Positions 22,146-42,439 of a DNA stretch of 64,000 nt are shown one piece after another (the stretch's first letter is position 1; every line of letters begins with the position of its first letter). The notes below the pieces were generated by a model. The model made no database searches, had not been told where the DNA came from, and was given only the letters and a program-made list of their open reading frames with translations. Where the stretch lies: the NCBI GenBank assembly GCA_963823335.1, contig CAWGLD010000001.1, positions 192,001-256,000 of the forward strand, given 5' to 3'. The DNA is from an uncultured delta proteobacterium. GTDB lineage: Bacteria; Desulfobacterota; Desulfobacteria; Desulfobacterales; B30-G6. Made by a program: the position numbers and the translations under genes.

Positions 22146-22275
22146 GCCAACTACCACCCGTGAAACGAGTGGCTTGGGTTTCCCCCAAAATGGGGGAAAA
22201 ACAAAGGAGACGGCACGTCTCCGTAAGTTCAGGTTCGGAACCGCGTGCCAAGCACGCGGTTTGTAGAACAATCAA
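22146..22275 (-). mobile_element. Non-autonomous IS200/IS605-like mini-element family A, copy 1 (130 bp including TTGAT)
   Basis: Near-identical to 42310-42439; four hairpins; TTGAT boundary overlaps moaA stop. Confidence 0.65.
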
Positions 22276-23264
22276 CCCCCGATACTCGACATAGGATCAT
22301 GAACCCGAAAAGGGCTGTCCGGGGCAAAATGGTGGGATTCGTGTTTATACTGCACCGCACGAAGGAATACGGCTTTCAACTCATCGTCACTGCAGCCGCT
22401 TCTCAAAGGGCCTCTGATATCCAGCTGTTTATCTGAAAGCAGACAGGGACGAAGCTGTCCATTGGCGGTCAGGCGTAATCGGTTACACGTATGACAGAAA
22501 TGCCGGCTCATGGCTTGAATAAACCCTATCTCACCCCTGGCCCCCTCTATCCGATATCGCTGTGCCGGACCATCCATGCGTTTTCTCGTGACCGGAGCCA
22601 GATCACCCAGCACACTCAGACGTGATTTTATTTCAGGTGTCAGAATGTAATCACTGCTCTTCATCTGGGCGTTTCCAATGGGCATGTATTCGATAAATCG
22701 GATGTGAAACGGATAGGTCATGGAAAGCCGGGCTAAATCGACAAATTCATCGTCGTTATATCCTTTCAGGGCCACGACATTCAGCTTGATGGGATCAAAC
22801 CCGTGTGCATAGGCCTTTTCGATACCTGCCCACACCTGGTCAAAAAGATCATACCCCGTGATATATTTAAATTTCTTGGGGTTTAAGGTGTCCAGACTGA
22901 TATTGATCCGTTTAATGCCGGCGGCCTCTATTTTTTCAATATTCTCACCCAGCATGACGCCGTTGGTGGTGAGAGAAATATCAGACAGCCCGTCAATGGC
23001 AGTCAGCTCCTTTATAAATTCGTAAACACCTGCTCGCATGAGCGGCTCACCACCGGTCAGCCGGACTTTTGAAATGCCTAAGGAAACACCCAGCCGAACA
23101 ATGCGCAGGATTTCTTCGTAGCGCAGAATGTCGGCGTGAGCCAGTTTGGGCACCAGCCCCCCCGGGGCACAGTACAAACAACGCAGGTTGCACCTGTCCG
23201 TAATGGAAATACGCAGGTAATTCAAATGGCGATTGTATTTGTCGACCAGTTCATTCATTTTCAT
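22272..23264 (-). CDS. moaA: GTP 3',8-cyclase MoaA
   Basis: YLRISITDRCNLRCLYC, RLTGGEP, FCHTCNRLRLT, C-terminal IGG. Confidence 0.97.
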   Translation of the reverse strand: MKMNELVDKYNRHLNYLRISITDRCNLRCLYCAPGGLVPKLAHADILRYEEILRIVRLGVSLGISKVRLTGGEPLMRAGVYEFIKELTAIDGLSDISLTTNGVMLGENIEKIEAAGIKRINISLDTLNPKKFKYITGYDLFDQVWAGIEKAYAHGFDPIKLNVVALKGYNDDEFVDLARLSMTYPFHIRFIEYMPIGNAQMKSSDYILTPEIKSRLSVLGDLAPVTRKRMDGPAQRYRIEGARGEIGFIQAMSRHFCHTCNRLRLTANGQLRPCLLSDKQLDIRGPLRSGCSDDELKAVFLRAVQYKHESHHFAPDSPFRVHDPMSSIGG

Positions 23265-24780
23265 AACGGGCTATCAAGGCATCCACCAGCCCGGGGATGG
23301 TGTATGTTTCGGCAACCAGGTGAACTTCGAATCCCAGCTCTCTGGCCGTATCCGCCGTGATGGGTCCGATACAGGCAACGGTCACAGGTGCCAGAAGTTG
23401 TTTAAAGATCCCTTCCGGTATGAGCTTCTTAAAATTTCTGACCGTGGAAGAACTGGTAAAGGTTATACAGTCGATGCTTCGATCTTCCAATCGGGCCAGG
23501 AGCGTTGCCGTGTTGTCTTCAGCGATCCGGGTGACATAGACCGGTATCTCATGAACCTCCGCACCCATTTTGGACAGTTCTTCCGGAAGGATGGCTCTGG
23601 CTTCCCGGGCCCGCGGGAGCAGAATTTTTTTGCCCGTGATCTGCTGGTGTTTGAACGCTTCCACCACCGACTCGGCACGGTAGGACTGCGGAAGAATATC
23701 GCAGGTGAGGCCGAAATCCTTGAGCCGCTTTTCAGTTGCAGGTCCGATGCAGGCCGTCTTGATGTGGTGAAGCGCGCGAACATCCTGCCCGAGTTCAAAA
23801 AGGCGCTTGAAAAAAAAGCCCACCCCGTTTACGCTCGTGAATACCAGCCAGTGATAATCCCCCAGACCTTGGATGGCCCGGTCCAGAGGTCCCCAGTCGT
23901 CCGGCGGGGCAATCTGGATGGTGGGGCACTCCAGGCAGTCCGCCCCCGCAGCATTGAGCAGCTGCAACAGATCACTGGCCTGCTCCCTTGCACGGGTCAC
24001 GACAAAACACTTTCCCATGAGAGGCTTGTTCTCGAACCATTGCATGGTTTCCCGCAGTTCCACCACATCACCGACCACGATAATGGCAGGTGCTTTGAGG
24101 CCGGCTGCCTCGACCTTTTTGACAATATTGCCCAGCGTACCGGTCACTGTTTCCTGTCGTGTGGTTGTGCCCCATCGAATGAGGGCAATCAAGGTCTCAG
24201 GCGGCATGCCGTGCCGGGTAAGCTGGTCCACGATGCGGGGCAGGTTCTTGACGCCCATAAAAAAAACGAGGGTCCCGATACCTGTGGCGAGTGCCTGCCA
24301 ATCGATACGAGAGGATGGTTTTTGCGGATCCTCGTGTCCTGTGATAAACGCCAGGGTAGAAGTGTACTTCCTGTGAGTCAGCGGGATGCCGGCATATGCC
24401 GGAGCAGCCACGGCCGAGGTCACACCCGGAACGATGTCAAAGGAAATGCCCGCTTCAACAAGCGCCTCCACCTCTTCACCCCCTCGTCCGAAAATAAACG
24501 GGTCACCCCCCTTGAGACGGGTCACGACCAGGCCTTGCCCGGCCTTTTCCACCAGCAGATGATTGATTTCATGCTGCTTCAGGGTGTGGTCACCCCCCTT
24601 TTTGCCCACATAAATAGATTCAGCGCCCTCCCGGGCATGGGCCAGCAGAGACGAGGAAGCCAGATAATCATACACCAGGACATCGGCCTTTTCGATACAG
24701 GCTTTGCCTTTGAGGGTAAGCAGTCCGGGATCCCCCGGGCCTGCACCCACCAGATAGACATGACCGGTTGTTTTTTTCAT
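23251..24780 (-). CDS. cobA: Uroporphyrinogen-III C-methyltransferase/synthase fusion (CobA-HemD)
   Basis: [29 protein letters not shown], then Hem[29 protein letters not shown]. Confidence 0.95.
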
Positions 24781-25706
24781 TCGCTTTTGCTTTGTAGTTT
24801 TTCAATGATGGTCATGGCGCCCTGATCCATCAGTTTCTCTGCCAGTTCAGTCCCGATGCTCACCGATGTCACCGCAGGGCCGGCCAACGCTGACCTGAAA
24901 ACCCGGGAACCATCCGGTTCTGCGACCAATCCGCTCAGCTCGAAGCGCCCGTCTTCAATCCTGCCCTGTGCTGCGATGGGAACCTGGCAGCTGCCCCCGA
25001 GCCGGTTCAGAAAAGCCCGTTCGCCCAGGACCACGGTTCGGGTCTCTGTATGATCCAGTTCCTCTACCAGAGCGCCTGTCTCTTTATCCCCCGTTCTTAT
25101 CTCGATGCACAACGCACCCTGCCCGGCAGCCGGCAGCATGACACCGCTGTCCAGATATTCCGTAATCCTGTGTTCCAGACCGAGTCGCCGGATGCCTGCC
25201 GCGGCAAGCACGATGGCGTCCAGATCACCTGTATCGAGTTTTCTCAGCCTGGTATCAAGGTTGCCCCTCAGGGGGTAAATACACACATCAGGTCTGGCAA
25301 ACAATATCTGCGATGCACGGCGTAGACTGCTGGTGCCGATCCGAGCGCCCTGCGGGAGATCCAACAGGCACCCTCTTTTTGATACCAGAACGTCTTGGGG
25401 GTTTTCTCTTCGGGGAATGGCACCGATACTTAAGCCACCGGGCAGTTCTGCCGGCATATCCTTCATGCTGTGCACCGCCAGATCGATCTTGCCCTCGAGC
25501 AGCGCATCCTCGATCTCTTTCACAAAAAGACCCTTGCCCCCCACTTTTGCCAGGGGCACATCCAGTATCTTGTCACCTTTTGTTTTGATGACCATGATTT
25601 GAACGGACAGGGTGGGATGGGTTTTCAGCAGTTCTGATCGAACCCAGTCGGCCTGCCAGAGCGCCAGCTTGCTTCCCCGTGTTCCAATATGGATGTTTCT
25701 GTCCAT
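24777..25706 (-). CDS. hemC: Hydroxymethylbilane synthase
   Basis: GTRGSKLALWQA, GKGLFVKE, VHSMKD, GTSSLRR, GGSCQVP. Confidence 0.97.
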   Translation of the reverse strand: MDRNIHIGTRGSKLALWQADWVRSELLKTHPTLSVQIMVIKTKGDKILDVPLAKVGGKGLFVKEIEDALLEGKIDLAVHSMKDMPAELPGGLSIGAIPRRENPQDVLVSKRGCLLDLPQGARIGTSSLRRASQILFARPDVCIYPLRGNLDTRLRKLDTGDLDAIVLAAAGIRRLGLEHRITEYLDSGVMLPAAGQGALCIEIRTGDKETGALVEELDHTETRTVVLGERAFLNRLGGSCQVPIAAQGRIEDGRFELSGLVAEPDGSRVFRSALAGPAVTSVSIGTELAEKLMDQGAMTIIEKLQSKSE

Positions 25707-25936
25707 CAATGGCCACAGCTTGCGCAACTTGTGGCCGCACACCCGCCACAGGAAGATGCAGACGCAGACGCACGGGTTGTTTCTCCAGCGCCGCCCTTGC
25801 TGACAAAGCCGCAGGAAGACATGAGACGGGTCACCTTTTTACCGCTGCAGGCAGGGCACTCCGGTTTCTCTGATCCAAAAACCAGTTTTTCAAAACTTTC
25901 CTTACAGGTCTCACAACAGTATTCATATATCGGCAT
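25706..25936 (-). CDS. FmdB-family zinc-ribbon protein
   Basis: MPIYEYCCETC...CPACS, C-terminal CGGC...CASC. Confidence 0.9.
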   Translation of the reverse strand: MPIYEYCCETCKESFEKLVFGSEKPECPACSGKKVTRLMSSCGFVSKGGAGETTRASASASSCGGCAATSCASCGH

Positions 25937-25972
25937 GGGTGCTACTCCAAAAATTTATAAGGTATCGGGTCG

Positions 25973-26001
25973 TTGGTGTTTGGTGTTTGGTGTTTGGTGT
26001 T
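25973..26001. repeat. Heptamer tandem repeat (TTGGTGT)x4
   Basis: Seen directly; same unit at 33394-33428. Confidence 0.8.
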
Positions 26002-26026
26002 CAAAATAATCACCGGGTCATCAAAG

Positions 26027-27409
26027 TCAACTGCCGCTGCCGTCTGCCAACAGGCGCGCCCGTAGCACAGCCAGTTCCGCTTCGGCAGGATAACCCAGGT
26101 CCAGGGCTCTGCTGTATGCTGAAAGCGCTTTTTCGGGCTGGTCCTGACGCAAGTAAACCTTTCCCAGACGGAATTGAAACAAACCATTCTCGGGAGCCAT
26201 CTCGACGGCTTTCTCACAGAACAGGGTCGAGATCTCAGAGTTTTCCGCTTTCTGGTCGTAGAGAGCACCCAGTGCTGACAGGGCACACGCATCTGTGGGA
26301 TTCTTTTTTATGGTCGTTTCGTAATGTGTGACAGCTTCGTCGGTCATGTGCAGCCCCTCACAACACTCACCCAGGTGAAGAAAGGTAATCCAGGATTCCG
26401 GCTGCAGACGGGCCGCCTTTTCCAGATAGGTTTTTGCCGCATCCAGGTCACCTTGATCCAGATACAGTTTCCCGAGCTGAAAAAAGACTTCAAAAACATC
26501 CTCCCCGGTGGCCTCGGCCTCTTGATAACATTTCAACGCGTCTTCCGTCTGGTTCAACATGTTGTGCACATACCCGGCGTTGTAAAGAGCCATGACCTCG
26601 TGCGGATCGAGCATGGTGGCCTCTTTGAAAGCCTCAAGAGCCTCTTCCAGGGCGCCCTCCACACCGTAACAAACACCCAGACTATTGAGGACATTGACAT
26701 TCCCCGGGTCCATTTTCAGTGCTGTTTTCAGCTCCTGGATAGCTCCCGACACATCCCCCTTCTGATACAGCTCGTCCCCGCTGATATTCAGGCTGACGGC
26801 ATCGAACAGAACAGCACTGCTGGCGCCAAAAAAAGACGCATGCGTCAGCGCTTTTCTGGCATTGTCAAAAACATCCGCCTTCCCGAAGTCAGCCGTTGGG
26901 TAAGAAGCCACACCGACGGAAACCGAACCATTGGCAAGCCCATCAACCCTGTCCTGGATATCTTCGGCCAGTTGCAGGGTATCGGTATCGTTCTTTCCGG
27001 GGAAAAAACATCCCAGCGCGTCTGCTGCCATGGCCCCCCAGGTGCCGTTTTCCATCCTGCACACATCATCAACCAACCGACCGATCTCCAGAATGCGCAG
27101 GGAAGTGTCATGACCGTCTACATCTGCGCTGTTCACGACGCCATCCATGCGGATAATCATGCTGCCAACGCACGAGACGTCCTGAATCTGTTCCAGGGCA
27201 TAGCGCAGAAACGCCTGTCCGCAATAAATTTCCGGGAAAGCCTGTCGCATGGCCTCCATGGACCCGTTGCCTGAAAAAGGGGCATCCCCACTATCGGGTG
27301 CTGCGGCAGGGGGATTGAAAAGAAAATGACGGGTTGTCCCGCGTTCAGAAAAGAGAATCGGTTGGGTCTTGCCTGTTCTTGGTGCCATTATTGAATCCTT
27401 CATTATCAC
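26027..27409 (-). CDS. Degenerate GGDEF-fold domain plus TPR repeats
   Basis: VSVGVASYP...NARKALTHA (GGDEF C-terminal pattern) without GGDEF motif; about 7 TPRs (NSLGVCYG, YNAG, FQLG). Confidence 0.75.
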   Translation of the reverse strand: MIMKDSIMAPRTGKTQPILFSERGTTRHFLFNPPAAAPDSGDAPFSGNGSMEAMRQAFPEIYCGQAFLRYALEQIQDVSCVGSMIIRMDGVVNSADVDGHDTSLRILEIGRLVDDVCRMENGTWGAMAADALGCFFPGKNDTDTLQLAEDIQDRVDGLANGSVSVGVASYPTADFGKADVFDNARKALTHASFFGASSAVLFDAVSLNISGDELYQKGDVSGAIQELKTALKMDPGNVNVLNSLGVCYGVEGALEEALEAFKEATMLDPHEVMALYNAGYVHNMLNQTEDALKCYQEAEATGEDVFEVFFQLGKLYLDQGDLDAAKTYLEKAARLQPESWITFLHLGECCEGLHMTDEAVTHYETTIKKNPTDACALSALGALYDQKAENSEISTLFCEKAVEMAPENGLFQFRLGKVYLRQDQPEKALSAYSRALDLGYPAEAELAVLRARLLADGSGS

Positions 27410-28827
27410 ACTTCTTCCATCAGTTGTTGAAAAGCTGCTTTTATGGCATCCGATTCCTTATCCTGGATGGTCCGAACATCCATCATGAAAAAATCGTCTT
27501 CAATTCTGCCGACAACAGCCGGCGTATACGCCCTCATCCATCTGTCGATGCGGTTTGCCGACAAGTTCTGAATCTTGACCCCCACACATCTGCTGGGCAG
27601 CTTCAGCAGTGGCAGAGAACCCCCACCGGCGCGGGAGGTGGCCTGGAAAGATTGCACCTGGAGTCTCTTATTATTCAGATCTTTCAACATTGCCATCAAT
27701 CTTTCGGCTTTCCCTTGAATGATCTGTTCCGGCATGGTGAGCATTCTCAATGTCGGAATCCGATGCAATGCAGCTGCTTCATCACGGTAGAGGCGCAGGG
27801 TGCTCTCGAGAGCGGCCAGGGTCAGTTTGTCGATCCGCAGGGCCCGGGTAATGGGGTTCTGCTTTATCTTGCGGAGCATTTCAGCGGCACCGGCAATCAC
27901 ACCCGCCTGGGGACCGCCAAGGAGCTTGTCTCCGCTGAAGGTCACCACATCCACACCGGTGGATACCGACTCCTGAACGGTGGGCTCCTTCAGGAGTCCA
28001 TGTTTGGACAGATCGATGAATGTCCCGCTGCCCAGATCTTCCATGACCGGCACATGATGCCGTTTTCCAAGGGCCACAAGATCCTTTAAAGAAACGCCGG
28101 CGGTGAAGCCCACCACACTGTAGTTGCTGGTATGGACCTTCAACAGGAGCCCGGTGTTGTCATCGATGGCGTTTTCATAATCCCGCAGATGGGTTCGATT
28201 CGTGGTTCCGACTTCTTTTAAAATGGCGCCGCTTTTTGCCATGACATCCGGAATTCTGAAAGAACCGCCGATCTCCACCAGTTCACCCCGTGAAACAATG
28301 ACCTTTTTACCCTTTGCAATGGTTTCCAGACACAAGAGAACCGCCCCGGCATTGTTGTTGACCACCATGGCAGCCTGGGCCCGGCTTATCTCACAGATGA
28401 GCTCCTCGACACTGCTGTAACGGGACCCCCGCTGCCCGGATGCCAGATCAAATTCCAGATTGGAGTATCCGCTGCCGATTTTCTGTAAATTTTCAAGGGC
28501 CTCATCTGCCAGCAACGAACGACCCAGGTTGGTATGAATGACGACACCGGTAGCGTTGATCACCTGTTTCAGATTCGGCATCATGACCGATGTGACCTGC
28601 TCCTTGATCCGCAGCATGATCTCTGATTCGGAAAGCATTTCTCCAGACAGTTCAGTTTGCGGGTCAAGAATCTTGGCCCGCAGCGATTCAATGGCAGATC
28701 GGGCTGCGTCGACCTGTGTGGACCTGGGAACATCCGCAAAAAATGGATCCGCCTTGAACCATTCAAGAATACGGTCAACACCGGGAAGAGATCGCAGCAG
28801 GGTCTGGTTGTCGGTTGTCTCTTTCAT
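27406..28827 (-). CDS. selA: L-seryl-tRNA(Sec) selenium transferase
   Basis: VINATGVVIHTNLGRS, VNNNA, EIGGSFRIPD, EVGTTNRT, FSGDKLLGGPQAG. Confidence 0.97.
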   Translation of the reverse strand: MKETTDNQTLLRSLPGVDRILEWFKADPFFADVPRSTQVDAARSAIESLRAKILDPQTELSGEMLSESEIMLRIKEQVTSVMMPNLKQVINATGVVIHTNLGRSLLADEALENLQKIGSGYSNLEFDLASGQRGSRYSSVEELICEISRAQAAMVVNNNAGAVLLCLETIAKGKKVIVSRGELVEIGGSFRIPDVMAKSGAILKEVGTTNRTHLRDYENAIDDNTGLLLKVHTSNYSVVGFTAGVSLKDLVALGKRHHVPVMEDLGSGTFIDLSKHGLLKEPTVQESVSTGVDVVTFSGDKLLGGPQAGVIAGAAEMLRKIKQNPITRALRIDKLTLAALESTLRLYRDEAAALHRIPTLRMLTMPEQIIQGKAERLMAMLKDLNNKRLQVQSFQATSRAGGGSLPLLKLPSRCVGVKIQNLSANRIDRWMRAYTPAVVGRIEDDFFMMDVRTIQDKESDAIKAAFQQLMEEV

Positions 28828-28837
28828 GGGCTCTCTT

Positions 28838-28889
28838 TTGAAGAACCTCACAGCGAGTCACGGGAAATGCGTTCGCTGTTGCGGTTCAG
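28838..28889 (+). mobile_element. Mini-element family B, internally deleted copy
   Basis: ttgaagaacctc...gcgttcgctgttgcggttcag. Confidence 0.6.
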
Positions 28890-28900
28890 CGCCTAGTGGT

Positions 28901-28974
28901 CAAAGGAGACGGCACGTCTCCGTAAGTTCAGGTTCGGAACCGCGTGCCAAGCACGCGGTTTGTCGAACAATCAA
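28901..28974 (-). mobile_element. Mini-element family A, truncated copy 2
   Basis: caaaggagacggcacgtctcc...cacgcggtttgtcgaacaatcaa. Confidence 0.65.
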
Positions 28975-29077
28975 ATTTTAAATGGCTATCATTATCTTAT
29001 TTTGTTCTAAACTTCAAGATCCCTGTTCAGAAGACAACAGGTTTCGCCTGACAGCCCGGGGAGAATGTGGTAATAGA

Positions 29078-29138
29078 GAAGTAAATAAGAAGTAAGAAGT
29101 AAGAAGTAAGCTGTAAGCAAGCTTATCGCTTACAGCTC
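29078..29138. repeat. Heptamer tandem repeat (GAAGTAA) plus GCTGTAAGC inverted repeat
   Basis: gaagtaagaagtaagaagtaagctgtaagc...gcttacagct. Confidence 0.7.
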
Positions 29139-29156
29139 AAAAAAAGGACTCACGCC

Positions 29157-30233: not shown

Positions 30234-30419
30234 GCATCCTAGCCCCCCAGCCTTAAAAAGGGTCTGAGGGTTGGAGGGTGATACAAGGGTTCGAGGGTAG
30301 CCAAAAGCTAATGGCTGATGGCAGCATCCTGGCATCCTAGCCCCCAGCCTTAAAAAGGGTCTGAGGGTTGGAGGGTGATACAAGGGTTCGAGGGTAGCCA
30401 AAAGCTAATGGCTGATGGC
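30234..30419 (+). repeat. Tandem duplication of about 89-bp unit containing G-rich octamers
   Basis: 30234-30322 and 30332-30419 differ by one C. Confidence 0.9.
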
Positions 30420-30667
30420 GGCTTCCTAACGCCCCGGCATCCCAGTTCAACCGTCAATAAAAATAAATATCGAATAATGAACAAGGAACAGCAGAATGTT
30501 GAAGGAATGACTTCGATATTCGATATTTCTTGTTCTACATTCTGCGGTTTTAACACAGGTTCCAAAATTAGAAAGACCAAGGTGAAGGGTTGGAAGGTAA
30601 CTCAAAGTAATCATTAAAAGGCACCTAACAGACTACCCCCCTAACCACCTGAAAAGGATCTGAAATA

Positions 30668-31426
30668 ATGAAATACCCCAAAGACTATCTCATCTTTCCC
30701 CTGGATGTCCCCACTGTCCATGAGGCCCGACGCTATGTCTCACTGCTAAAGGATCATGTGGGTATATTCAAGGTCGGTCTGGAGCTCTTTATCAAGACCG
30801 GGCCCGACATTGTGCATGAAATTCGAAAGCGTGCAGCCGAGGCTCGCATCTTTCTGGACCTGAAACTTCACGACATCCCGGAAACCGTTTACCGGGCCAT
30901 GCAGGGCATCGCCTCCCTGGGTGTCACGTATGCCACGGTCCACTGTGGTGAATCCAAAAAAATGCTCGAGGCCGCCGTCAGGGGTGCCGACGGTAGGGTC
31001 CACCTCCTGGGGGTTACCGTGCTGACGAGTGTCGCCGAGGAGGATCTCCGGTCGGCCGGTTACGATGCATCCTTTACCGAGGATGTCACCCGCCTGGTAG
31101 TCAAAAAGGCGGCCATGGCCAGGAGTGCCGGATTTGCAGGCGTGATCTGCTCCGGTCACGAAGCCGGACAGATAAAAGAAACCTGCGGAAAACCCTTTCT
31201 GGCGGTGACGCCGGGCATCAGGCCCGCATGGGATATTCCAGGCGGCGATGATCAGGCGCGTGTCATGACACCTGCCCGGGCCATTCATAACGGATCGGAT
31301 CACCTGGTCATCGGGCGCCCCATCCGGGATAACAAAGACCCGGTCATGGCGGCACGACAGGTTCTTGAGGAAATTGACAAAGCCCTTCAACAAATGGATC
31401 TGAATGGGGTTGGGGTCGCCCATTGA
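30668..31426 (+). CDS. pyrF: Orotidine-5'-phosphate decarboxylase
   Basis: FKVGLEL, FLDLKLHDIPET, VTVLTS, TPGIRP, DDQAR, IGRPI. Confidence 0.97.
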   Translation: MKYPKDYLIFPLDVPTVHEARRYVSLLKDHVGIFKVGLELFIKTGPDIVHEIRKRAAEARIFLDLKLHDIPETVYRAMQGIASLGVTYATVHCGESKKMLEAAVRGADGRVHLLGVTVLTSVAEEDLRSAGYDASFTEDVTRLVVKKAAMARSAGFAGVICSGHEAGQIKETCGKPFLAVTPGIRPAWDIPGGDDQARVMTPARAIHNGSDHLVIGRPIRDNKDPVMAARQVLEEIDKALQQMDLNGVGVAH

Positions 31427-31505
31427 AGAACCTCGCAGCAATCTACGAGGAATGTTCTGCCGTACGGCAGAACCTACGGGGAATGCGCTCACTGTCGCGG
31501 TTCAA
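31423..31505 (+). mobile_element. Mini-element family B, full copy
   Basis: ttgaagaacctcgcagc...gcggttcaa; reverse-complement match at 55474-55555. Confidence 0.65.
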
Positions 31506-35059: not shown

Positions 35060-35094
35060 GGTACCTCCTTCCTATCCCGTTATTTTATACAATA

Positions 35095-35261
35095 CCCAAC
35101 CCGGATAAACCGGAAAAGAAAAAGATCGTTTATCACGAAACCACGAAAGTACGAAACCACGAAAAAGACCATGTAAATTTTCATGTTTTTCAATTTTCGT
35201 GTTTTCGTAATTTCTTATTTTTTTCCACAAAATACACAAATTTTACAGTTAAGAGACTAGA
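35095..35261. repeat. MITE-like remnant with CACGAAA repeats and inverted partner
   Basis: aacccggataaaccggaa...cacgaaaccacgaaagtacgaaaccacgaaa...ttttcgtgttttcgtaat...ctag; similar end at 4913 (aacccggacaaacc). Confidence 0.5.
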
Positions 35262-35291
35262 AGCCATCTCAAATAACGGGGGATATGTTTG

Positions 35292-35741
35292 CTATTGCCG
35301 CTTCAGTGACCCAATCTTCTCCAAGAGTTCACAACTCTTGGATTCCATCCGTATAGCTTCCGTCTCAGACATTTCGTGGTCATATCCAAACAGATGCAGA
35401 ATACCATGAATCAATAGCTCATCCAGACGCTCCTTCATGGAGACCCCTGCTGCCAGGCCTTCTTTCTCGGCTGTTTCCAGGGAGATGACAACATCCCCCA
35501 GCAGGTCCGGATTGATTTCGGCAAACACCCCTTCTCGCATGGGAAACGCGATAACATTGGTAGGTCCTTCCCTTTGAAGATAGTTCTTGTTCAGAACACC
35601 GATTTGTGAATCATCGAGTAGAAGGATGGAAAGTTCGCCATCAGGACTGCCCAAGGCGTCTAAGATGACCTGCGCTTTTTCTTTCAGCGTTTTTTGCGCT
35701 ATTTTGTATTTGTCTTGCCTGTTTTCTATCAGTACTCCCAT
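35292..35741 (-). CDS. ybeY: rRNA maturation endoribonuclease YbeY
   Basis: TNVIAF, LGDVVIS, HGILHLFGYDH. Confidence 0.95.
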   Translation of the reverse strand: MGVLIENRQDKYKIAQKTLKEKAQVILDALGSPDGELSILLLDDSQIGVLNKNYLQREGPTNVIAFPMREGVFAEINPDLLGDVVISLETAEKEGLAAGVSMKERLDELLIHGILHLFGYDHEMSETEAIRMESKSCELLEKIGSLKRQ

Positions 35742-38082
35742 TTTTTCCGTTCCCTCCGGTCAAAAGGGCTGTTTCAGGATATTCGATGCGGTGGTGATGG
35801 ATCCCGGTCAGTATTTTATTGAAGCTACGGGCGATATTGTGCAGATCCCTCAGGGTCAACTCACAATTGTCCAATTGGCCATCTGAGAAAATTTTGTTAA
35901 TCAGTTCCTGTACCAGCCTTCGGACACGTGACGATGTCGGGTTTTCCAGGGTTCGGGATGCCGCCTCCAGTACATCGGCCAACATGACCAATCCAGCTTC
36001 CCTGGTCTGGGGTATGGGACCCGGATACCTGAAATCATCTATCTTAACGGCATGTTCTCCCTTTTGTTTTTTGGCTTTATCATAAAAATACCGAATCAGG
36101 CTGGTACCATGATGCTGCTCGATGGTATCGATGATGGCCTGACCCAGCTTGTTTTCACGACCCATTTCCATACCATCCTTGACATGCGCGATGAGGATCA
36201 GACTTGACATGGATGGGGCCAGCTTGTCATGCCGGTTGATACCATCTTCTTGATTTTCAATAAAATAGAGCGGTTTTTTGATCTTGCCGATATCATGGTA
36301 GTATCCACACGCTTTTGCCAACAAAGGATTTGCTCCGATTTCAGATGCGGCGGCCTCCACCATGGTACCCACCACCATGGAGTGGTGGTAGGTTCCCGGT
36401 ACTTCAATCATGAGACGCTTCAGAATGGGTCGATCAAGATTGGCCAACTCCAGCAAGGTGATATCGGTGGTATATCCAAAGGTCAGTTCGATCAGCGGCG
36501 AAAGACCCGATGTGACAATACCGGTACCCACGCCTCCGGCAAACGCAAAAACAGCACCCCACACAATGTTCATCAAGGACAGGTTTCCAGAATAGATCTC
36601 TGCCGCGACAACAAGCAGCATGCTCAACAGGCCCAGCTTCAAACCGGCCTTGATAAACACCTTCCGTTCCCTGCAATTCTGGATCCAATAGGCTGCCATG
36701 GCGCCATTCAAAAGCAGATAAATCAGAATTTCAAAATGGATATGATAAACAATCGCCGTGCAAATGGCCATGAGGACGGCAAATGGGATAGCGATCTGCA
36801 TTCCGAAAAAAAGACAGATTGTCATGGCTCCGGCACCAATGGGAATTCCGTAAAACAGTGTGGTCTCGTTGATGGACAGAGCCGCTCCCAGTGCCAGTGA
36901 TTCAGAAAAGATCGCCGCGGCTTTCGCAATCCCCATAAAAAAGATAAAGACACAGGTGATGCAGAGAAGGTTCCGGTTATAACTGCCCGGCAGTTTCTTC
37001 AGCTCTGACAGATAGAGAAGATGCGTAACAATAAAAAGTGCGATGATCACCATTGCCGCACCCAGACTCTTTGCAAAAACACCCTCGTCCTTGAACTGAG
37101 ACTCGAGCGCTTTCAGTTTGAGAAGCTGCAACTCCGTGACCCTTTCACCTTCACGCAGCAACATCTCGCCGGTCTTGATCTTGTAAAAAATCGGTTTTAT
37201 CTCTGAGGCGGCCTGCTTTTTCCGATCTTCCGTTTCACTCTTGTTGAGGGTAATGTTGGGGCGTATCAGGCTCTGAACCACATCTACGATCAAATTTCTC
37301 AGATTATAATTTAGCTCCTTGAGAAGCGGCTGCCCGATAACCCGCACCATCACCTTGGATTGATCCAGGCCGTAAAACTGACGCAGGTTGATGACGGTTG
37401 TTTCGGTTTTTTCCTGGATCCGCCTGAGGGTGATCCCTTTTTCAGATTCCCGCAGAAAAATTTCCTTGTTGGCCACAACACCGTTATCAAGAACTTCTGA
37501 CAGAATTTTGATGATATAAAGAGCGATGTCACTTGAAAAGCCCTCTTTTTCGAGTATGGTGAAAGCACCGCTATTCAAAGGTATGCCAAGTTTTTTCTCG
37601 AACTCGGGCTTCTTTTCCCACAATGCTTTTCTGATCTGTTCGGCCTTTTCCGTCTCGCTCCGAAGCTGATCCTCTTCTGTTTGCGGCAGGGATATTCCGG
37701 GAGGGTCCTCTGGAGAAAGAGCATCCGGAACTGCCGGCAGGCTTTCCTGAATCGTCACCTGCATGGTCTCGAAAGCATCGTTGACCTGGCGGGCCAATTC
37801 CTCGGCAAGGGTCATGGCGTGATCGTAAACGGTCCGCACCGATTCCACTGCCGTCTGCATATTACGTTCGGTGGCAGCTCTTTCTTCAAACAAGAAATCC
37901 TTGGGCGCCTTGACATCCTTATCCACAACATCACCCAGCACGTAGGCATGCTGTTTCACGATCAGACTCGGGTAGAGACTCACCGTGACCGTCAGGGTAA
38001 TCACCCCCAGTAACAGCCATTTGAGATATTTTTCCAGACTGTGGTATTTTTCCAGATTTACGTTGCGTTTCTCCTGCTTCAT
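35641..38082 (-). CDS. pgpH: 7TM-HD phosphohydrolase (PgpH-like c-di-AMP phosphodiesterase)
   Basis: Large extracellular domain, 7 TM, PGTYHHS, YYHDIGK, FIENQ, QHHGT, LAD..EAA; phoH-HD-ybeY synteny. Confidence 0.82.
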   Translation of the reverse strand: MKQEKRNVNLEKYHSLEKYLKWLLLGVITLTVTVSLYPSLIVKQHAYVLGDVVDKDVKAPKDFLFEERAATERNMQTAVESVRTVYDHAMTLAEELARQVNDAFETMQVTIQESLPAVPDALSPEDPPGISLPQTEEDQLRSETEKAEQIRKALWEKKPEFEKKLGIPLNSGAFTILEKEGFSSDIALYIIKILSEVLDNGVVANKEIFLRESEKGITLRRIQEKTETTVINLRQFYGLDQSKVMVRVIGQPLLKELNYNLRNLIVDVVQSLIRPNITLNKSETEDRKKQAASEIKPIFYKIKTGEMLLREGERVTELQLLKLKALESQFKDEGVFAKSLGAAMVIIALFIVTHLLYLSELKKLPGSYNRNLLCITCVFIFFMGIAKAAAIFSESLALGAALSINETTLFYGIPIGAGAMTICLFFGMQIAIPFAVLMAICTAIVYHIHFEILIYLLLNGAMAAYWIQNCRERKVFIKAGLKLGLLSMLLVVAAEIYSGNLSLMNIVWGAVFAFAGGVGTGIVTSGLSPLIELTFGYTTDITLLELANLDRPILKRLMIEVPGTYHHSMVVGTMVEAAASEIGANPLLAKACGYYHDIGKIKKPLYFIENQEDGINRHDKLAPSMSSLILIAHVKDGMEMGRENKLGQAIIDTIEQHHGTSLIRYFYDKAKKQKGEHAVKIDDFRYPGPIPQTREAGLVMLADVLEAASRTLENPTSSRVRRLVQELINKIFSDGQLDNCELTLRDLHNIARSFNKILTGIHHHRIEYPETALLTGGNGKNGSTDRKQARQIQNSAKNAERKSAGHLRRLGQS

Positions 38083-39065
38083 GCGGTCCTTTGCTTTTCT
38101 TTTTCCAGTTCTTCATAGGCCATGATAATATCCTGAACCAGCTTATGCCGGACCACATCCGTTTTGCTGAAGAATGCAAATCGAATCCCCTTGATATTGC
38201 CCAGAATATTTTTGGTCTCGATCAATCCGGATGGTTTGTTGGACGGAAGATCGATCTGTGTAATATCGCCGGTGATCACGGCCTTGGAACTGAAACCGAT
38301 ACGCGTCAGAAACATTTTCATCTGTTCAGAGGTGGTGTTCTGGGCCTCGTCCAGAATAACGAACGAATCGTTTAATGTTCTCCCTCTCATGAAGGCTATG
38401 GGTGCGACTTCGATAATGCCCCTTTGCAGAAGACTCGAAACCTTTTCAAACCGCATCATGTCATGCAGCGCATCATACAGCGGTCTTAGATAGGGATCCA
38501 CCTTTTCCGACAGGTCACCCGGGAGAAAGCCAAGCGCCTCCCCTGCTTCCACGGCAGGTCGTGTCAGAATGATCCGGTTGACAATTCCCTTGGACAGAGC
38601 GGAGACGGCCATGGCCATGGCCAGATATGTTTTGCCGGTTCCTGCAGGACCGATACCGAAAACGATATCATTGTTCCGGATGGCATCGATGTATTCTTTT
38701 TGCGCCCGGCTTTTCGGCGTAATGGCACGGTCTTTAGACGTCACATACACCGTATCCAGAAAGATGGACCTTAGATCGGCCGTGTCATCTTCAGTCAACA
38801 CCCTTATGGCATAGTCCACATCGTTCTCATAGATAGGGTAGCCTTCCTTCAGCAACTGATACAACTGATCCAGAATCTTCTTACCCAGGATTGCAACGAT
38901 GGCGTCTCCCTGGATGTGCACGGTATTGCCCCTTGCATGAATCTTGACATCCAGGGCGCTGGCGATTCTCTTTAAATTGTCGTTGTGTTCACCAAAAAGA
39001 TGCCTGACCAGATCCACATCCGGGTAGGTTGCCCTTTCCTGGTGATTTTCATCGTTCTTCTGCAT
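38079..39065 (-). CDS. phoH: PhoH-family ATPase (YbeZ-like)
   Basis: GPAGTGKTYLA, TRPAVEAGE, GFLPG, MRGRTL, DEAQN. Confidence 0.96.
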   Translation of the reverse strand: MQKNDENHQERATYPDVDLVRHLFGEHNDNLKRIASALDVKIHARGNTVHIQGDAIVAILGKKILDQLYQLLKEGYPIYENDVDYAIRVLTEDDTADLRSIFLDTVYVTSKDRAITPKSRAQKEYIDAIRNNDIVFGIGPAGTGKTYLAMAMAVSALSKGIVNRIILTRPAVEAGEALGFLPGDLSEKVDPYLRPLYDALHDMMRFEKVSSLLQRGIIEVAPIAFMRGRTLNDSFVILDEAQNTTSEQMKMFLTRIGFSSKAVITGDITQIDLPSNKPSGLIETKNILGNIKGIRFAFFSKTDVVRHKLVQDIIMAYEELEKEKQRTA

Positions 39066-39089
39066 AAATGCCCTTGCCCTGTTACCAAA

Positions 39090-39129
39090 ATAAAATCAGC
39101 TTACGATTTTATCAAACGCGACGATGTCG
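39090..39129 (-). promoter_or_regulatory. 40-bp bipartite palindromic motif before phoH
   Basis: ataaaatca-N5-cgattttat-N6-cgac-N3-gtcg. Confidence 0.6.
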
Positions 39130-39289
39130 CTATTTTGCGAAAAGTTAAATTCTTTTCTTAACATATACGCTCAGACCAATGCAAATCACAAATTTGCCTG
39201 AGGTCCAAATGAAAAATACCTTGACGAAGGGAGCCTGTCTTTGTTAATTTACTTTTTTAATTATTTATCTAAAAATAAATTCGTGCCGT

Positions 39290-39814
39290 ATGAATTCATT
39301 CGACATTCTTGTCAGTATCATTTTTGGTTTTTGCCTGATCAGGGGTATCTTTCGGGGTCTTGTAAAGGAAGTCTCCTCGATTATCGGCGTAATTGCTGGA
39401 TATTATGCCGCCTACTCATATTACTCCTATGTGGCCAAGTTTTTATCCCAGTGGATTTCCGTTGTCGCCTACAGCAGGATGATCGGATTTCTGGTTATTT
39501 TTGTCGGGGTTTTTCTGATCATCAGCATTCTTGGTGTCATCATTAAATACCTGATGAGTATTGCCTTTCTGGGCTGGGCCGATCGAATCAGCGGCGGTAT
39601 TTTTGGTTTAATCAAGGGACTGCTCATCGTATCCGTGCTGTTTATCGTTTTCACCACCTTTCTTTCAAAAAACGCCTCGATTGTCCAAGATTCCATTCTG
39701 GCACCTCCTCTGTCCCATATATCAACACAAATGGCCAAGATCATGAAAAAAGACATGAAGCACGAATTTACTGAAAAAGTCGAAGGCTTAAAAAAGGCTT
39801 GGAAGAAACCCTGA
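39290..39814 (+). CDS. cvpA: CvpA-family membrane protein
   Basis: MNSFD..RGIFRGLVKE, DRISGGIFG. Confidence 0.9.
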   Translation: MNSFDILVSIIFGFCLIRGIFRGLVKEVSSIIGVIAGYYAAYSYYSYVAKFLSQWISVVAYSRMIGFLVIFVGVFLIISILGVIIKYLMSIAFLGWADRISGGIFGLIKGLLIVSVLFIVFTTFLSKNASIVQDSILAPPLSHISTQMAKIMKKDMKHEFTEKVEGLKKAWKKP

Positions 39815-40611
39815 ACCATACCTCCCCTCCTTTTAAAGAAATCATCGACCTGATTGAAACCCTCAGGGGTGAAAACGGATGCCCCTGGGACCGGAAGCAG
39901 ACCCCTCTGTCCATGACCCGCTATCTTGTGGAAGAGGCTTTCGAACTCATGGACGCAGTCCACTCGGAGAATGTCGAGGACATCTGTGAAGAACTCGGAG
40001 ACGTTCTTTTTCTGGTGCTCTTCATCGCGATCCAGTTTCAATCCTCGGGTCAATTCAACATAAAAACCCTGACCCAGCGCAATCTGGATAAAATGACCCG
40101 TCGGCACCCGCATGTTTTTGCTGAAGAAACAGCCCATACGCCCGAGAAGGTACGGGAACGCTGGCATGAGATCAAACGCCAGGAAAAATCATCCCAGCAG
40201 GATCACACCGTACTGGGAACCGTACCCAAAAGTCTCCCGGCACTCATGCGGGCCCATAGGATATCGGAAAGGGCAGCCCATACCGGGTTTGACTGGGACA
40301 ACATCGAGGGTGTCATGATAAAAGCGCAAGAGGAATGGGAGGAATTGAAACAGGAGCTGAAAAAGGATCCAGAAGACGCCGGCAACCGCGAAGCGCTGGA
40401 ACTTGAAATCGGGGATGTCCTGTTTACCCTCGTCAATGTAGCAAGATTTGCGGGCATCCATCCTGAAACAGCCCTGGCAGCATCGACCCGAAAATTTGAA
40501 ACCCGATTCAACAGCATGGAGAAACTGGCCAAAAGCCGTCAAACCCTTTTCGAGAAACTCTCTTATAGCGACAAGCACCGCTTGTGGGATGAGGTGAAGA
40601 GGGGGGAGTAA
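39799..40611 (+). CDS. mazG: Nucleoside triphosphate pyrophosphohydrolase MazG
   Basis: GCPWDRKQT, EELGD, RRHPHVF, GFDW, EIGD. Confidence 0.95.
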   Translation: MEETLNHTSPPFKEIIDLIETLRGENGCPWDRKQTPLSMTRYLVEEAFELMDAVHSENVEDICEELGDVLFLVLFIAIQFQSSGQFNIKTLTQRNLDKMTRRHPHVFAEETAHTPEKVRERWHEIKRQEKSSQQDHTVLGTVPKSLPALMRAHRISERAAHTGFDWDNIEGVMIKAQEEWEELKQELKKDPEDAGNREALELEIGDVLFTLVNVARFAGIHPETALAASTRKFETRFNSMEKLAKSRQTLFEKLSYSDKHRLWDEVKRGE

Positions 40612-40615
40612 ATGA

Positions 40616-40694
40616 GGGGTGGAGGAGATCAAGACCAGGGTTGGAGGGGTGGAGGTTCGGAGGGTTGGAGGGGATCAAGACCAGGGTTGGAGGG
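40616..40694 (+). repeat. G-rich tract with duplicated gatcaagaccagggttggaggg
   Basis: Seen directly. Confidence 0.7.
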
Positions 40695-40753
40695 ACATGC
40701 CGAGTCCGTTTTCGGCTATCTGAAATAGTTTTGATAAATTATTACCAAATAAA

Positions 40754-40868
40754 TTTCACGCCCCCGATGGGTTCATTGACAAGGCATTCAGGGGCGCAGC
40801 CGTAGTATACTACTGCAAGTTCCTGATAACGCAGTCAATGAGCCCATCGGGGAGCGCTCGAAGAGTGA
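40754..40868. mobile_element. Long-hairpin MITE/structured element family C, copy 1
   Basis: Same conserved loops as 54450-54611 with different but complementary stems. Confidence 0.6.
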
Positions 40869-40893
40869 TAATTTTTTTAAAATTATCATGAAA

Positions 40894-42174
40894 TTAGTCG
40901 TCAAAGTCCCCGGCAGGTCCCTTATCACTGTCGATCTCGGCCGCCTTTTGAACGATTTTTTTCGGTGTCCACTCATCCGGGTTCTCGATCCGTTCCGCCT
41001 TGGGGCCGGGATCGTAGGTTCCGACGGACAGTATTTTCTGGATAGCGATATCGGCCGTTTCGGTTGCGTTAAATACCTTCACCAGCATGTTGTATACAAA
41101 ATCTTCCACACGTTTGACCATTCTGTCACGAATCGCCATGGGTTGACCCAGTAACTTGTTTTCAAAAGGCAGATTGAGTTTCTTATAATCCCCGCCTTTC
41201 AAGCCCTTGGATGTTGCGTAGGCCACCATCGCCGCCCACATTTCTTCGGTGGCGCCCTGATCCTTGACCTTGATAAAACTGCCGTCCTCACTCAAAATGG
41301 CATTTCCGAAATCGTTTACCTCCAGCCCCCATGAAATCATCTGCAGGGCCGTAGCGACATTGGCTTTCGTTGTTCGGGTATTGGCGGCGATCTCTCTGAG
41401 GCGGTCTGAACTGTTTCCCGAGGTGCCATGCTGTGCACCCGACACCTTATAGGGTGCCAGGGCATCGTGAATCTGACGCGTCAACTCCACCTGGATGCCC
41501 TGCCCACTGGCTTCGATACCATGTGTCGTGCCGTTGTTCAGCGCTATCCAGTCCGCAAAGATATCGTGTGCATTGAGACCCCTGATGAGAAAACTGGCTT
41601 CTGCAACGGTTGACAACCCTTCCTTGCCCTTGATTTCTCCCACCTCTGTTTCTAGGCCGGCCCAGGCGGGAATGAAGGGATTCAACTGCAGATTGGCCAA
41701 GAGATTCTGGTCATCCGGCATGTGAGAGGCATCGACGGCGATGGAGGTCATGCCCGCTTCAAACAGGGTGGGTATCTCAACCTTGGCCACGTCAATGTCT
41801 GATTCCTTTTTGATACCGTAATGATCGGCATGGATGGCCACCGGAATACGGATGTCCAGTTCGTTGCAGATGGCGTCCACCTGTCTGGCAATATTCCAAT
41901 AGTTGACTGCACAATAGGCATCGGCACCGCCCTCTGAACGGGCTATCTCAATGATAATACATGCATTGGCCCGTTGCGCCGCCTGCAGGGCACCCCGGAT
42001 AACGAAACTGTTTCTGCCATTGGCCGCCATGGCGATTGCCTGTCCTTTTTTGGCCATAGCCCTGTCGATAAATTTTCCACTAACAATCAATGCCCGGGAG
42101 TTCGGGAATAATCGGGTCACGTTGGGAGGGCGACCGATTTGAATTGCCTTTTCGAAATCTGATGAAGAAACCAT
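40894..42174 (-). CDS. fba: Class II fructose-bisphosphate aldolase
   Basis: IHADH, DASH, ETEVGEI, NGTTHG, AQHGTSG, KANVAT. Confidence 0.9.
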   Translation of the reverse strand: MVSSSDFEKAIQIGRPPNVTRLFPNSRALIVSGKFIDRAMAKKGQAIAMAANGRNSFVIRGALQAAQRANACIIIEIARSEGGADAYCAVNYWNIARQVDAICNELDIRIPVAIHADHYGIKKESDIDVAKVEIPTLFEAGMTSIAVDASHMPDDQNLLANLQLNPFIPAWAGLETEVGEIKGKEGLSTVAEASFLIRGLNAHDIFADWIALNNGTTHGIEASGQGIQVELTRQIHDALAPYKVSGAQHGTSGNSSDRLREIAANTRTTKANVATALQMISWGLEVNDFGNAILSEDGSFIKVKDQGATEEMWAAMVAYATSKGLKGGDYKKLNLPFENKLLGQPMAIRDRMVKRVEDFVYNMLVKVFNATETADIAIQKILSVGTYDPGPKAERIENPDEWTPKKIVQKAAEIDSDKGPAGDFDD

Positions 42175-42309
42175 GGATGAACCTCCTTTTTGCCGGTGGC
42201 ATCCCGCACAATGTTGCAGGAGCGAATGTCTTTATTATGATATGTTCTTTTTTAACAAGCGATGGGAACGTCTCAACAAGATAGCTTATAACAGACTTCT
42301 CATTCGTCA

Positions 42310-42439
42310 GTCAACTACCACCCCTAAAACGGGTGGCTTGGATTTCCCCCAAAATGGGGGAAATCCAAAGGAGACGGCATGCCTCCGTAAGTTCAGGTTC
42401 GGAACCGCGTCCCAAGCACGCGGTTTGTAGAACAATCAA
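42310..42439 (-). mobile_element. Mini-element family A, copy 3 (most intact hairpins)
   Basis: gtcaactaccacccctaaaacgggtggcttg...aacaatcaa. Confidence 0.65.

What the first reader, a model, noticed from the sequence alone, without database searches (positions are those of the whole stretch)
22146..42439. Gene-less 130-bp IS200/IS605-like mini-elements beside TTGAT with a TnpB/IscB omegaRNA-like end (family A)
Seen: copies at 22146-22275, 28901-28974 (truncated) and 42310-42439. On the minus strand each starts at TTGAT, full copies have four hairpins and end CAAGCCACCCG-TTTTA-GGGGTGGTAGTTGAC. In copy 1 TTGA is the moaA Gly/stop sequence, so it is host target DNA; no target duplication is seen. 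Established: IS200/IS605 elements insert 3' of a tetra/pentanucleotide (TTGAT for ISDra2) without duplication, and TnpB guide RNAs derive from the right end plus flanking DNA; the reverse complement GTCAACTACC..CTAAA..GGCTTG resembles HEARO-type ends. Inference: non-autonomous elements moved in trans that might also express guide RNAs (flanks TGACGAATGAGAAGTC, TCATAGGTATTTGTTG), i.e. a dispersed guide repertoire.
Basis: partly seen in the sequence, partly recalled or inferred. Interest (0 to 1): 0.72.

Follow-up and report, generated by a model that had tools for sequence, protein, structure and literature searches.

The report
Mini-transposon that clamps its own ends
The repeats are copies of a 125-base, gene-less jumping element that is likely moved by a transposase borrowed from IS200 insertion sequences; it shows no sign of supplying guide RNAs, but an inner stretch matches both of its own ends and would clamp them together.

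Summary
Real. The three segments belong to a 125-bp gene-less IS200/IS605-type element (a PATE), with 29 full and 8 short copies in this genome. Empty sites show precise insertion at TTGAT|T without duplication. Both ends obey the TnpA guide/cleavage-site rule, with covariation. 34 of 37 copies lie in the lagging-template orientation. The best-matching right ends belong to tnpA-only IS200 elements; the exact parent was not found, and this genome holds only tnpA fragments. The guide-RNA reading is not supported: no TnpB or IscB over cut-off in 15 family genomes, no TnpB zinc-finger match in 5 sister-family hosts, no Rfam match, no promoter-like site at copies 1 and 3. The short form is an in-place deletion. 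One feature I did not find in print: the spacer after the left hairpin is complementary to the right-end|left-end junction of the excised circle, leaving the cut site unpaired. It covaries across seven divergent families and is absent from 33 IS200 controls. It is weakest in this genome's main subfamily and only partly present in two held-out families; its function is untested. The scan noted this family before on other DNA of this genome (e1-2078814).

The parts
22146..22270 (-). Copy 1, full 125-bp element; right cleavage motif decayed (TGGC) and one mismatch in the right hairpin, so probably immobile (inferred)
   Evidence: empty allele in run contigs
22271..22275 (-). Host target TTGAT of copy 1; its TGA (22272-22274) is the moaA stop codon
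28899..28969 (-). Copy 2, 71-bp short form: left end, spacer and hairpin 2 joined to the last five bases; hairpin 3 and the right hairpin are deleted
   Evidence: same-site full/short pair
28970..28974 (-). Host target TTGAT of copy 2
42310..42434 (-). Copy 3, full 125-bp element
   Evidence: clean empty site in 4 of 5 relatives
42435..42439 (-). Host target TTGAT of copy 3
42424..42427 (-). Left guide CAAA, predicted to pair with target TGAT
   Evidence: 66 of 83 sites; rule from PMC3201880 section 20
42405..42423 (-). Left subterminal hairpin (predicted TnpA binding site)
   Evidence: 96.6% of cells paired
42387..42404 (-). Spacer: 42400-42397 is complementary to element bases +2..+5 and 42395-42390 to bases -7..-2 (one G.G mismatch at -3); the proposed junction clamp
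42370..42386 (-). Hairpin 2, followed by T residues (terminator-like consensus match only)
42340..42366 (-). Hairpin 3, matching the penultimate hairpin of IS200 right ends; 4 of 5 core pairs show changes on both sides
42337..42340 (-). Right guide CAAG, predicted to pair with TGAC
42318..42336 (-). Right subterminal hairpin (predicted TnpA binding site)
42310..42313 (-). Right cleavage motif TGAC; the host base that follows is T

Best explanation
The element is a 125-bp gene-less PATE that inserts precisely at TTGAT|T without duplication, is likely moved as a single-stranded DNA circle by an IS200-type Y1 transposase (TnpA) supplied in trans, likely makes no working guide RNA, and carries a spacer predicted to pair with both of its own ends. 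Shown: the boundaries, target, lack of duplication, the CAAA/TGAT and CAAG/TGAC (or AAAG/TTAC) guide pairs, the strand bias, and the spacer's complementarity to the end-to-end junction. Inferred from IS608 work: TnpA binds the two subterminal hairpins on the lagging-strand template, cuts after TGAT and after TGAC, releases a circle and reinserts it at another TTGAT|T. My inference, untested: the spacer pairs with bases +2..+6 and -8..-2 and leaves the cut C|T unpaired, so it holds the ends together during excision or shields the junction in the circle. Slippage between 3-base repeats deletes hairpin 3 and the right hairpin in place, which would leave immobile 71-bp copies. I put the PATE identity alone at about 0.95; the confidence below is for the whole statement, including a selected DNA-level clamp.
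For: Precise insertion: copy 3 is cleanly empty in 4 of 5 relatives. Copy 1 is skipped in contigs of 3 of 4 runs (125 bp in X5; 126 bp plus one different base in X2 and X10). Two copies sit inside other repeats whose empty copies lie in the same genome. Target over 69 full sites: TTGAT positions 63, 67, 61, 67, 69 of 69, +1 T in 63 of 69 and 29 of 29 in this genome; a +1 preference is known for IS608 TnpA (PMC5934647 section 12). Right guide/cleavage pairs: CAAG/TGAC 37 and AAAG/TTAC 8 of 70. The same rule holds at the right end of 46 of 73 tnpA loci, against 7.4% by chance per hairpin. Strand bias: 34 of 37 copies on the G-rich strand, against 51.7% of TTGATT sites, p 1.7e-7, as reported for the family (PMC5027513 passages). 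The family profile hits the right end of 8 of 70 tnpA loci at E<0.05, and 0 of 30 TnpB and 0 of 30 IscB loci at E<=1. Covariance model: best 38.1 bits on tnpA loci, 17.6 on TnpB/IscB loci. Clamp: junction score 5.5-10.5 in 11 representatives; among the 7 most distinct, permuting right ends gives p 0.0007 and left ends p 0.005. 33 tnpA-only IS200 elements show nothing (4.33 against 4.19 permuted, p 0.19). Target flanks are not enriched for the bases the spacer would pair with, so the pairing is aimed at the element itself. Short form: the same site is full in L118/L132 and short in L128.
Against: No autonomous element with this left end was found: 401 genomes of the order, 48 GTDB loci, 23 metagenome loci, plasmids and phages. 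This genome (93.9% complete) holds only C-terminal tnpA fragments, yet 5 copies are identical. The tnpA loci were gathered with a query chosen for its matching right end, which favours them over the TnpB and IscB sets. The clamp is weakest in this genome's main, most recently spread subfamily (score 5.5; pair 46-129 broken in 37 of 47 rows). In two held-out families only 3 of 6 copies beat shuffles at p<0.01, and one family lacks the right-end arm. The families are kin, so the permutation p values overstate. I set the sister-family boundaries by eye, without empty sites. Pairing of -4..-2 with the spacer competes with the guide pairing that TnpA needs. No end-to-end junction was found in the genome or the fetched loci.
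Confidence: 0.55

Rival explanations
1. Same PATE and same TnpA mechanism, but the spacer's match to the junction is a by-product. It arose once by fold-back copying when the element formed and is kept by template-switch correction of near-palindromes in single-stranded DNA, with no function.
For: The most active subfamily here carries a mismatch in the pairing. One held-out family has only the left arm. Autonomous IS200 elements of the clade move without it. Correction of near-palindromes by template switching is recalled knowledge, from no call.
Against: The two arms keep the same order and the same small unpaired gap at the cut site in 5 of the 6 family alignments printed, and a two-base variant in the sixth. 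The arms are adjacent only in the circle, so ordinary local correction does not reach them.
Confidence: 0.28
2. One reading: the element is transcribed on the transferred strand as a compact TnpB-type omega-RNA, the spacer pairing is the conserved pseudoknot, and the right flank is a 16-nt guide used by a TnpB supplied in trans or since lost.
For: The paired right-end positions include -6..-2, which form the pseudoknot of ISDra2 omega-RNA (PMC10097598 passages). An alternative stem (alignment columns 36-40 with 53-57) is 94.5% paired with changes on both sides at 2 of 5 pairs and would put the partner in a loop. PATEs are said often to encode omega-RNAs (PMC10055086 passages). The target equals the ISDra2 TAM.
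Against: No TnpB over cut-off in 15 family genomes, none in this genome, no TnpB zinc-finger match in 5 of 5 sister-family hosts, although 23 of 301 genomes of the order have TnpB. 0 of 30 TnpB loci match the profile; 1 of 30 gives a weak model hit (16.4 bits). The left arm also covaries, which a pseudoknot does not explain. No promoter-like site at copies 1 and 3. One would-be guide has five perfect TTGAT+16-nt sites in the host chromosome; the others match no better than random flanks.
Confidence: 0.12
3. A REP-like repeat spread by one of the genome's RAYT-type Y1 proteins, or kept by the host as a terminator or RNA-stability element.
For: The genome has eight Y1_Tnp matches, mostly long RAYT-like proteins by my reading. 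Most copies are intergenic and hairpin 2 fits a terminator consensus.
Against: The ends follow the IS200 guide rule and not the GTAG/CT rule of REPs (PMC3479197 passages). No copy lies in the 250-300 bases printed on either side of those genes. Orientation follows replication and not neighbouring genes (11 sense, 7 antisense among 18 copies between same-direction genes). Insertion sites differ between relatives.
Confidence: 0.05

Closest known systems
PATEs (palindrome-associated transposable elements) of Haloquadratum walsbyi, Dyall-Smith et al. 2011 (PMC3119063, passages read)
   Same: Gene-less, no terminal inverted repeats, near-terminal palindromes, no target duplication, homogeneous multi-copy families, repeat-mediated core deletions.
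   Different: The ends here are closest to tnpA-only IS200 elements; the deletion removes the right hairpin and not the core between hairpins; no pairing of the interior with both ends appears in the passages read.
IS608 / ISDra2 single-strand transposition (PMC3201880 passages and section 20; PMC5027513 and PMC6006769 passages; PMC5934647 passages and section 12)
   Same: Tetranucleotide guides 5' of each hairpin that pair with the cleavage motifs; a second hairpin 3' of the left one; lagging-template bias; a preferred base at +1.
   Different: No tnpA or tnpB gene; +1 is T, not C. In IS608 the bases 3' of the left hairpin were engineered to pair with the target upstream of the cleavage motif; here they naturally match the element's own junction and overlap the cleavage motif.
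tnpA-only IS200-type elements of the same order (L169/L200 in G007, 620 bp; L201; L204; L206)
   Same: Penultimate hairpin, guide, right hairpin, four bases, cleavage motif, then T; L206 has the same TTGAT target and CAAA guide.
   Different: Their left hairpins differ in sequence, so none is the direct parent; they lack the junction complementarity.
omega-RNA-bearing PATE-like elements of Geobacillus stearothermophilus, Meers et al. (PMC10055086, passages)
   Same: Gene-less IS200/IS605 derivatives with covarying TAM/TEM and DNA guides.
   Different: There TnpB and IscB elements share the genome and omega-RNAs are expressed; here no such nuclease was found.
IscB omega-RNA / HEARO (RF02033; structure in PMC9640706, passages)
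   Same: On the plus strand the element begins like IscB elements of the order, with the shared right-end hairpin.
   Different: 125 bp in all against a 206-nt scaffold; no HEARO match; no iscB gene.

Membership tests
PATE (non-autonomous IS200/IS605) | [quoted passage not shown] | tested here: met
   125 bp, the two ends are not inverted copies
PATE (non-autonomous IS200/IS605) | Subterminal hairpins at both ends | tested here: met
   96.6% and 96.8% of cells paired in 47 copies
PATE (non-autonomous IS200/IS605) | Insertion 3' of a 4-5 nt target without duplication | tested here: met
   empty sites; target logo
PATE (non-autonomous IS200/IS605) | Guide tetranucleotides complementary to the cleavage motifs at both ends | tested here: met
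   CAAA/TGAT 66 of 83; CAAG/TGAC 37 and AAAG/TTAC 8 of 70
PATE (non-autonomous IS200/IS605) | Orientation tied to the lagging-strand template | tested here: met
   34 of 37, control 51.7%; strand inferred from GC skew
PATE (non-autonomous IS200/IS605) | An autonomous element with the same ends exists | tested here: inconclusive
   right end matches tnpA-only elements; no element with this left end found
PATE (non-autonomous IS200/IS605) | Excision and insertion by TnpA through an ssDNA circle | not testable with these tools
   needs an assay; no junction in the assemblies held
TnpB omega-RNA cassette | A TnpB in the same genome | tested here: not met
   the genomes are incomplete MAGs
TnpB omega-RNA cassette | Scaffold homologous to the 3' end of a tnpB element | tested here: not met
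   0 of 30 loci by profile; one weak model hit of 16.4 bits; only TnpB loci of this order were compared
TnpB omega-RNA cassette | Pseudoknot pairing of scaffold positions -6..-2 | tested here: inconclusive
   complementarity is present and covaries but is broken at -3 in the main subfamily and is also explained by the junction clamp
TnpB omega-RNA cassette | Discrete RNA running 15-20 nt into the right flank | not testable with these tools
   only assembled contigs of RNA runs were on offer
IscB/IsrB omega-RNA (HEARO) | Match to RF02033 and a scaffold of about 200 nt | tested here: not met
   the control rang nowhere, so that call alone is weak
IscB/IsrB omega-RNA (HEARO) | iscB/isrB in the genome | tested here: not met
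   RRXRR 0 of 15 family genomes while 17 of 301 order genomes ring; NF040563 gives only short sub-cut-off matches in 14 of 15
REP/RAYT | GTAG or GTGG guide 5' of the hairpin and copies flanking the RAYT gene | tested here: not met
   guides are CAAA and CAAG/AAAG; no copy in the flanks printed for the eight Y1 matches

The most novel reading that the evidence does not exclude
A phylum-wide class of IS200-derived mini-transposons has evolved an internal DNA splint that base-pairs across its own right-end|left-end junction and leaves only the scissile dinucleotide free. It is a natural, self-directed form of the extended base pairing that was engineered into IS608, and it lets a 125-base parasite synapse its ends or guard its circle better than the autonomous elements whose transposase it borrows.
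Probability: 0.35. Interest if true: 0.65.

Novelty: new variant of a known kind. Interest (0 to 1): 0.4.

Why it matters
As a PATE family it is ordinary, and it is a useful counter-example: an omega-RNA-like end is shared by all TnpA substrates and does not by itself mean a guide RNA. If the junction clamp is functional, it adds a base-pairing layer to peel-and-paste transposition that I did not find described. It could be tested with short oligonucleotides and a 144-residue transposase, and it would bear on the design of minimal TnpA donors.

Tried and rejected
Parent search. The left-end pattern gave only mini-elements, remnants or chance hits: 9 of 401 order genomes; 41 element loci and 7 chance matches among 48 GTDB loci; 23 of 23 metagenome loci; 2 chance viral loci. 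Three right-end patterns gave 0 viral loci. BLAST against plasmids and phages gave only short chance pieces. The GTDB and metagenome scans may return only part of the matches.

Right-end-only hits in G012, G013 and others are IS200 shells or remnants, not IscB elements.

RNA runs. Only contigs were offered, so starts, ends and strand cannot be read. One RNA-library contig (X9) crosses the right boundary of copy 3, which fits read-through or DNA carry-over; I draw nothing from it. No contig joint skipping copy 3 was listed in the four runs.

Copy 1 orthologues in five relatives were uninformative: the stop codon and intergenic DNA differ. At copy 3, G001 has a different remnant-like sequence at the site. 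At copy 2 the upstream flank is replaced by another repeat, so its G at the flank says nothing about the target.

The short form as a mobile subfamily: not favoured. It lacks the right hairpin and guide, shares a site with a full copy, has two different breakpoints and carries lineage-specific variants. Mobility is not excluded; 2 of 8 short copies lack the +1 T.

A guide base dictating the +1 T: rejected, since +1 T follows guides with A, G or T at position 3. The cut position cannot be fixed to better than one base by comparison, because T follows both motifs.

Faulty steps. The structure strings, and helix 4, were out of register and are not used (one search is the corrected count). One search had a faulty pattern (redone). 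In one search one site was wrongly merged (L125 with L128). In one search the start of L392 and L408 was set one base too far in. In one search the 5' ends were printed for only part of the 30 loci.

Literature. No paper on this family surfaced, and none on a junction-pairing spacer; one search found nothing. The library lacks most subscription papers, and the Ton-Hoang 2010 paper was not held. No supplements were read; those of PMC3119063 (Table S9) and PMC10055086 (element ends) may bear on novelty.
Full report
Observation. The three segments are in the window as described. Copies 1 and 3 fold into four hairpins far better than shuffles (DNA z -5.9 to -6.6, 0 of 200). In the genome (G000, 4.37 Mb, 11 contigs, 93.9% complete) a BLAST and profile search found 29 full copies, 8 short copies and about 10 remnants. 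Five of the 29 are identical. Related copies occur in the same genus and family (10 of 41 genomes with any match, some only right-end pieces) and rarely beyond (left-end pattern in 9 of 401 genomes of the order). Record titles of GTDB hits name deltaproteobacteria and Desulfobacterales.

Boundaries and target. At copy 3, four of five relatives carry the bare site; the insert is 125 bp and nothing is duplicated. At copy 1, contigs of three of four runs skip the element: 125 bp in X5, and 126 bp with one different base in X2 and X10. Four insertions of relatives are empty in G000 (L057, L087, L113, L133; read by eye among 21 orthologous pairs printed from 56 copies); in L113 the empty allele also has a different base at +1. 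Two G000 copies lie within other repeats whose empty copies show the same precise join. Over 69 full sites the target is TTGAT (63, 67, 61, 67, 69 of 69 by position), followed by T in 63 and C in 43. The T after the cut is 29 of 29 in G000. IS608 TnpA likewise prefers one base at +1 (PMC5934647, section 12 read).

Transposase signature. In IS608 the first two guide bases pair crosswise with the first two bases of the cleavage motif and the third base of the motif is unpaired (PMC3201880, passages and section 20); I take the fourth pair from recall of the same scheme. Here the left guide CAAA goes with TGAT at 66 of 83 sites. The right guide changes with the motif: CAAG/TGAC at 37 and AAAG/TTAC at 8 of 70 sites, the rest being decayed variants. 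The transferred strand is the G-rich strand at 34 of 37 copies, against 51.7% of TTGATT sites (p 1.7e-7; 16 of 17 on contig C1). That is the lagging-template orientation reported for the family (PMC5027513 and PMC6006769, passages).

Which partner. G000 has eight Y1_Tnp matches, mostly long RAYT-like proteins by my reading, and only C-terminal fragments of IS200-type tnpA. Six of 15 family genomes have a match over the IS200 cut-off. G007 holds a 620-bp tnpA-only element whose right end has the same layout as ours. Using its protein I gathered 70 tnpA loci from 80 of 401 genomes. With three more, 46 of 73 show a right end that obeys the guide rule within 57-199 nt of the gene, leaving no room for tnpB; chance is 7.4% per hairpin. 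The mini-element profile hits 8 of 70 tnpA loci at E<0.05, over hairpin 3 and the right hairpin, and none of 30 TnpB or 30 IscB loci at E<=1. A covariance model gives up to 38.1 bits on tnpA loci and up to 17.6 bits on 7 of 60 TnpB/IscB loci. The tnpA set was seeded with a matching element, which favours it. L206 uses the same TTGAT target and CAAA guide but has a stop in its gene. No element with our left end and a gene was found.

Guide-RNA idea. Rfam gives no match in the window at gathering scores and four weak unrelated ones at copy 3. G000 has no TnpB or IscB by PF07282, PF01385, NF040570 or PF14239. The family has three sub-cut-off TnpB pieces and short sub-cut-off matches to the IscB model. 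Five hosts of sister families have no TnpB zinc-finger match. The order does hold TnpB (23 of 301) and IscB (17 of 301), so the searches work. No promoter-like site was found at copies 1 and 3. The 29 would-be guides match TTGAT sites no better than random flanks, apart from two self-matches and one copy in a repeat with five perfect sites in the chromosome, which an active nuclease would cut (inference). RNA data were contigs only and decide nothing. These are incomplete MAGs, so absence is not proven.

Short form. Seven of eight short G000 copies share one breakpoint and one has another; both lie at 3-base repeats on either side of hairpin 3 plus the right hairpin. One site is full in L118 and L132 and short in L128; L128 and L132 come from the same metagenome assembly by their record prefix. 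I read this as slippage in place. Repeat-mediated deletions in PATEs are described (PMC3119063, passages).

The spacer. A right-end pattern search found sister four-hairpin families in G303, G291, G266, G275, G025 and G151. In 11 representatives the 22 bases after the left hairpin pair with the last eight bases over 4-7 bp (sum 59 against 46.9 permuted, p 1e-4); 36 IS200 controls do not (p 0.21). The same spacer also pairs with the first bases of the element, directly beside the right-end arm. Aligned to the end-to-end junction it covers about -8..-2 and +2..+6 and leaves the cut C|T opposite a single base in 5 of 6 alignments printed. Scores are 5.5-10.5. Among the 7 most distinct families, permuting right ends gives p 0.0007 and left ends p 0.005. 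Circular DNA folding puts most of these pairs above 0.9 in five of six sequences and at 0.75-0.88 in the G000 main type. 33 IS200 elements show no such match in 22-base, 45-base or whole-leader windows (p 0.19, 0.89, 0.44).

Against the spacer reading. Kin are not independent, and I set the sister boundaries by eye. Within the 47-copy alignment the left arm is 96.8% paired with no change on both sides, and the right arm is 78.4% paired, one pair being broken in 37 of 47. Two held-out families from a phylum-wide model search (G475, G508) give 3 of 6 copies at p<0.01; G508 has only the left arm. An alternative stem would make the right-arm pairing a pseudoknot at the positions used by TnpB omega-RNA (PMC10097598, passages), which keeps the RNA reading alive at low odds. 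In IS608 the bases 3' of the left hairpin lie near the cleaved strand and can be engineered to pair with it (PMC5934647, passages), so a DNA-level role is physically plausible.

Verdict. A PATE of IS200 type (about 0.95). A selected junction clamp about 0.55, of which a clear functional effect as stated in the novel case about 0.35; by-product 0.28; guide-RNA cassette 0.12; REP-like or host element 0.05. PATEs and omega-RNA-bearing PATEs are known (PMC3119063; PMC10055086 and PMC4810608, passages).

Noticed in passing
L318, L334-L345 (G303); L323, L346-L350 (G291); L320 (G266); L310 (G275); L311 (G025); L324 (G151); L392, L403, L408, L415 (G475); L393, L402 (G508): Sister four-hairpin PATE families of about 120-180 bp across the phylum; G303 has 31 right-end matches. 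Several G303 copies have lost half of the left hairpin or the whole interior.
   Followed up: partly
L319, L308, L328, L314, L315, L321, L322, L333, L416: IS200-type right ends with no tnpA whose interior holds a different repeat; L319 keeps both IS200 ends around it, a second kind of gene-less shell.
   Followed up: no
G000:C3:148221-148348 with L011 (G004) and L111 (G007): One insertion is shared at the same site by three species, so some copies are old and inherited vertically.
   Followed up: partly
G000 contig C1: Only 2 of 17 copies lie within 500 kb of the GC-skew minimum near 980 kb; the rest are toward the contig ends.
   Followed up: no
G000:C5:355793-355820: A lone right end, followed inward by a different hairpin repeat.
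   Followed up: no
L001-L004, L006-L008: Y1 (RAYT-like) genes, five with long C-terminal extensions; near C1:783000 the gene start is repeated several times in tandem.
   Followed up: no
window 28838-28889, 31422-31462, 53476-53514, 55474-55556: Another dispersed repeat; one copy replaces the original flank of element copy 2.
   Followed up: partly
window 3262-3461, 13213-13256, 30244-30427, 40601-40692, 42564-42791, 62621-62660: Arrays of a G-rich 8-base unit, some as inverted pairs around a gap.
   Followed up: no
window 10098, 32848, 39089, 54796, 55277: A family of about 41-bp palindromic repeats.
   Followed up: no
window 9611-9714 and 17679-17782: A 104-bp direct repeat, 96% identical.
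   Followed up: no
sites tallied: Five of 70 full copies end in TGAT, the target motif, and not TGAC, while keeping the CAAG guide.
   Followed up: no
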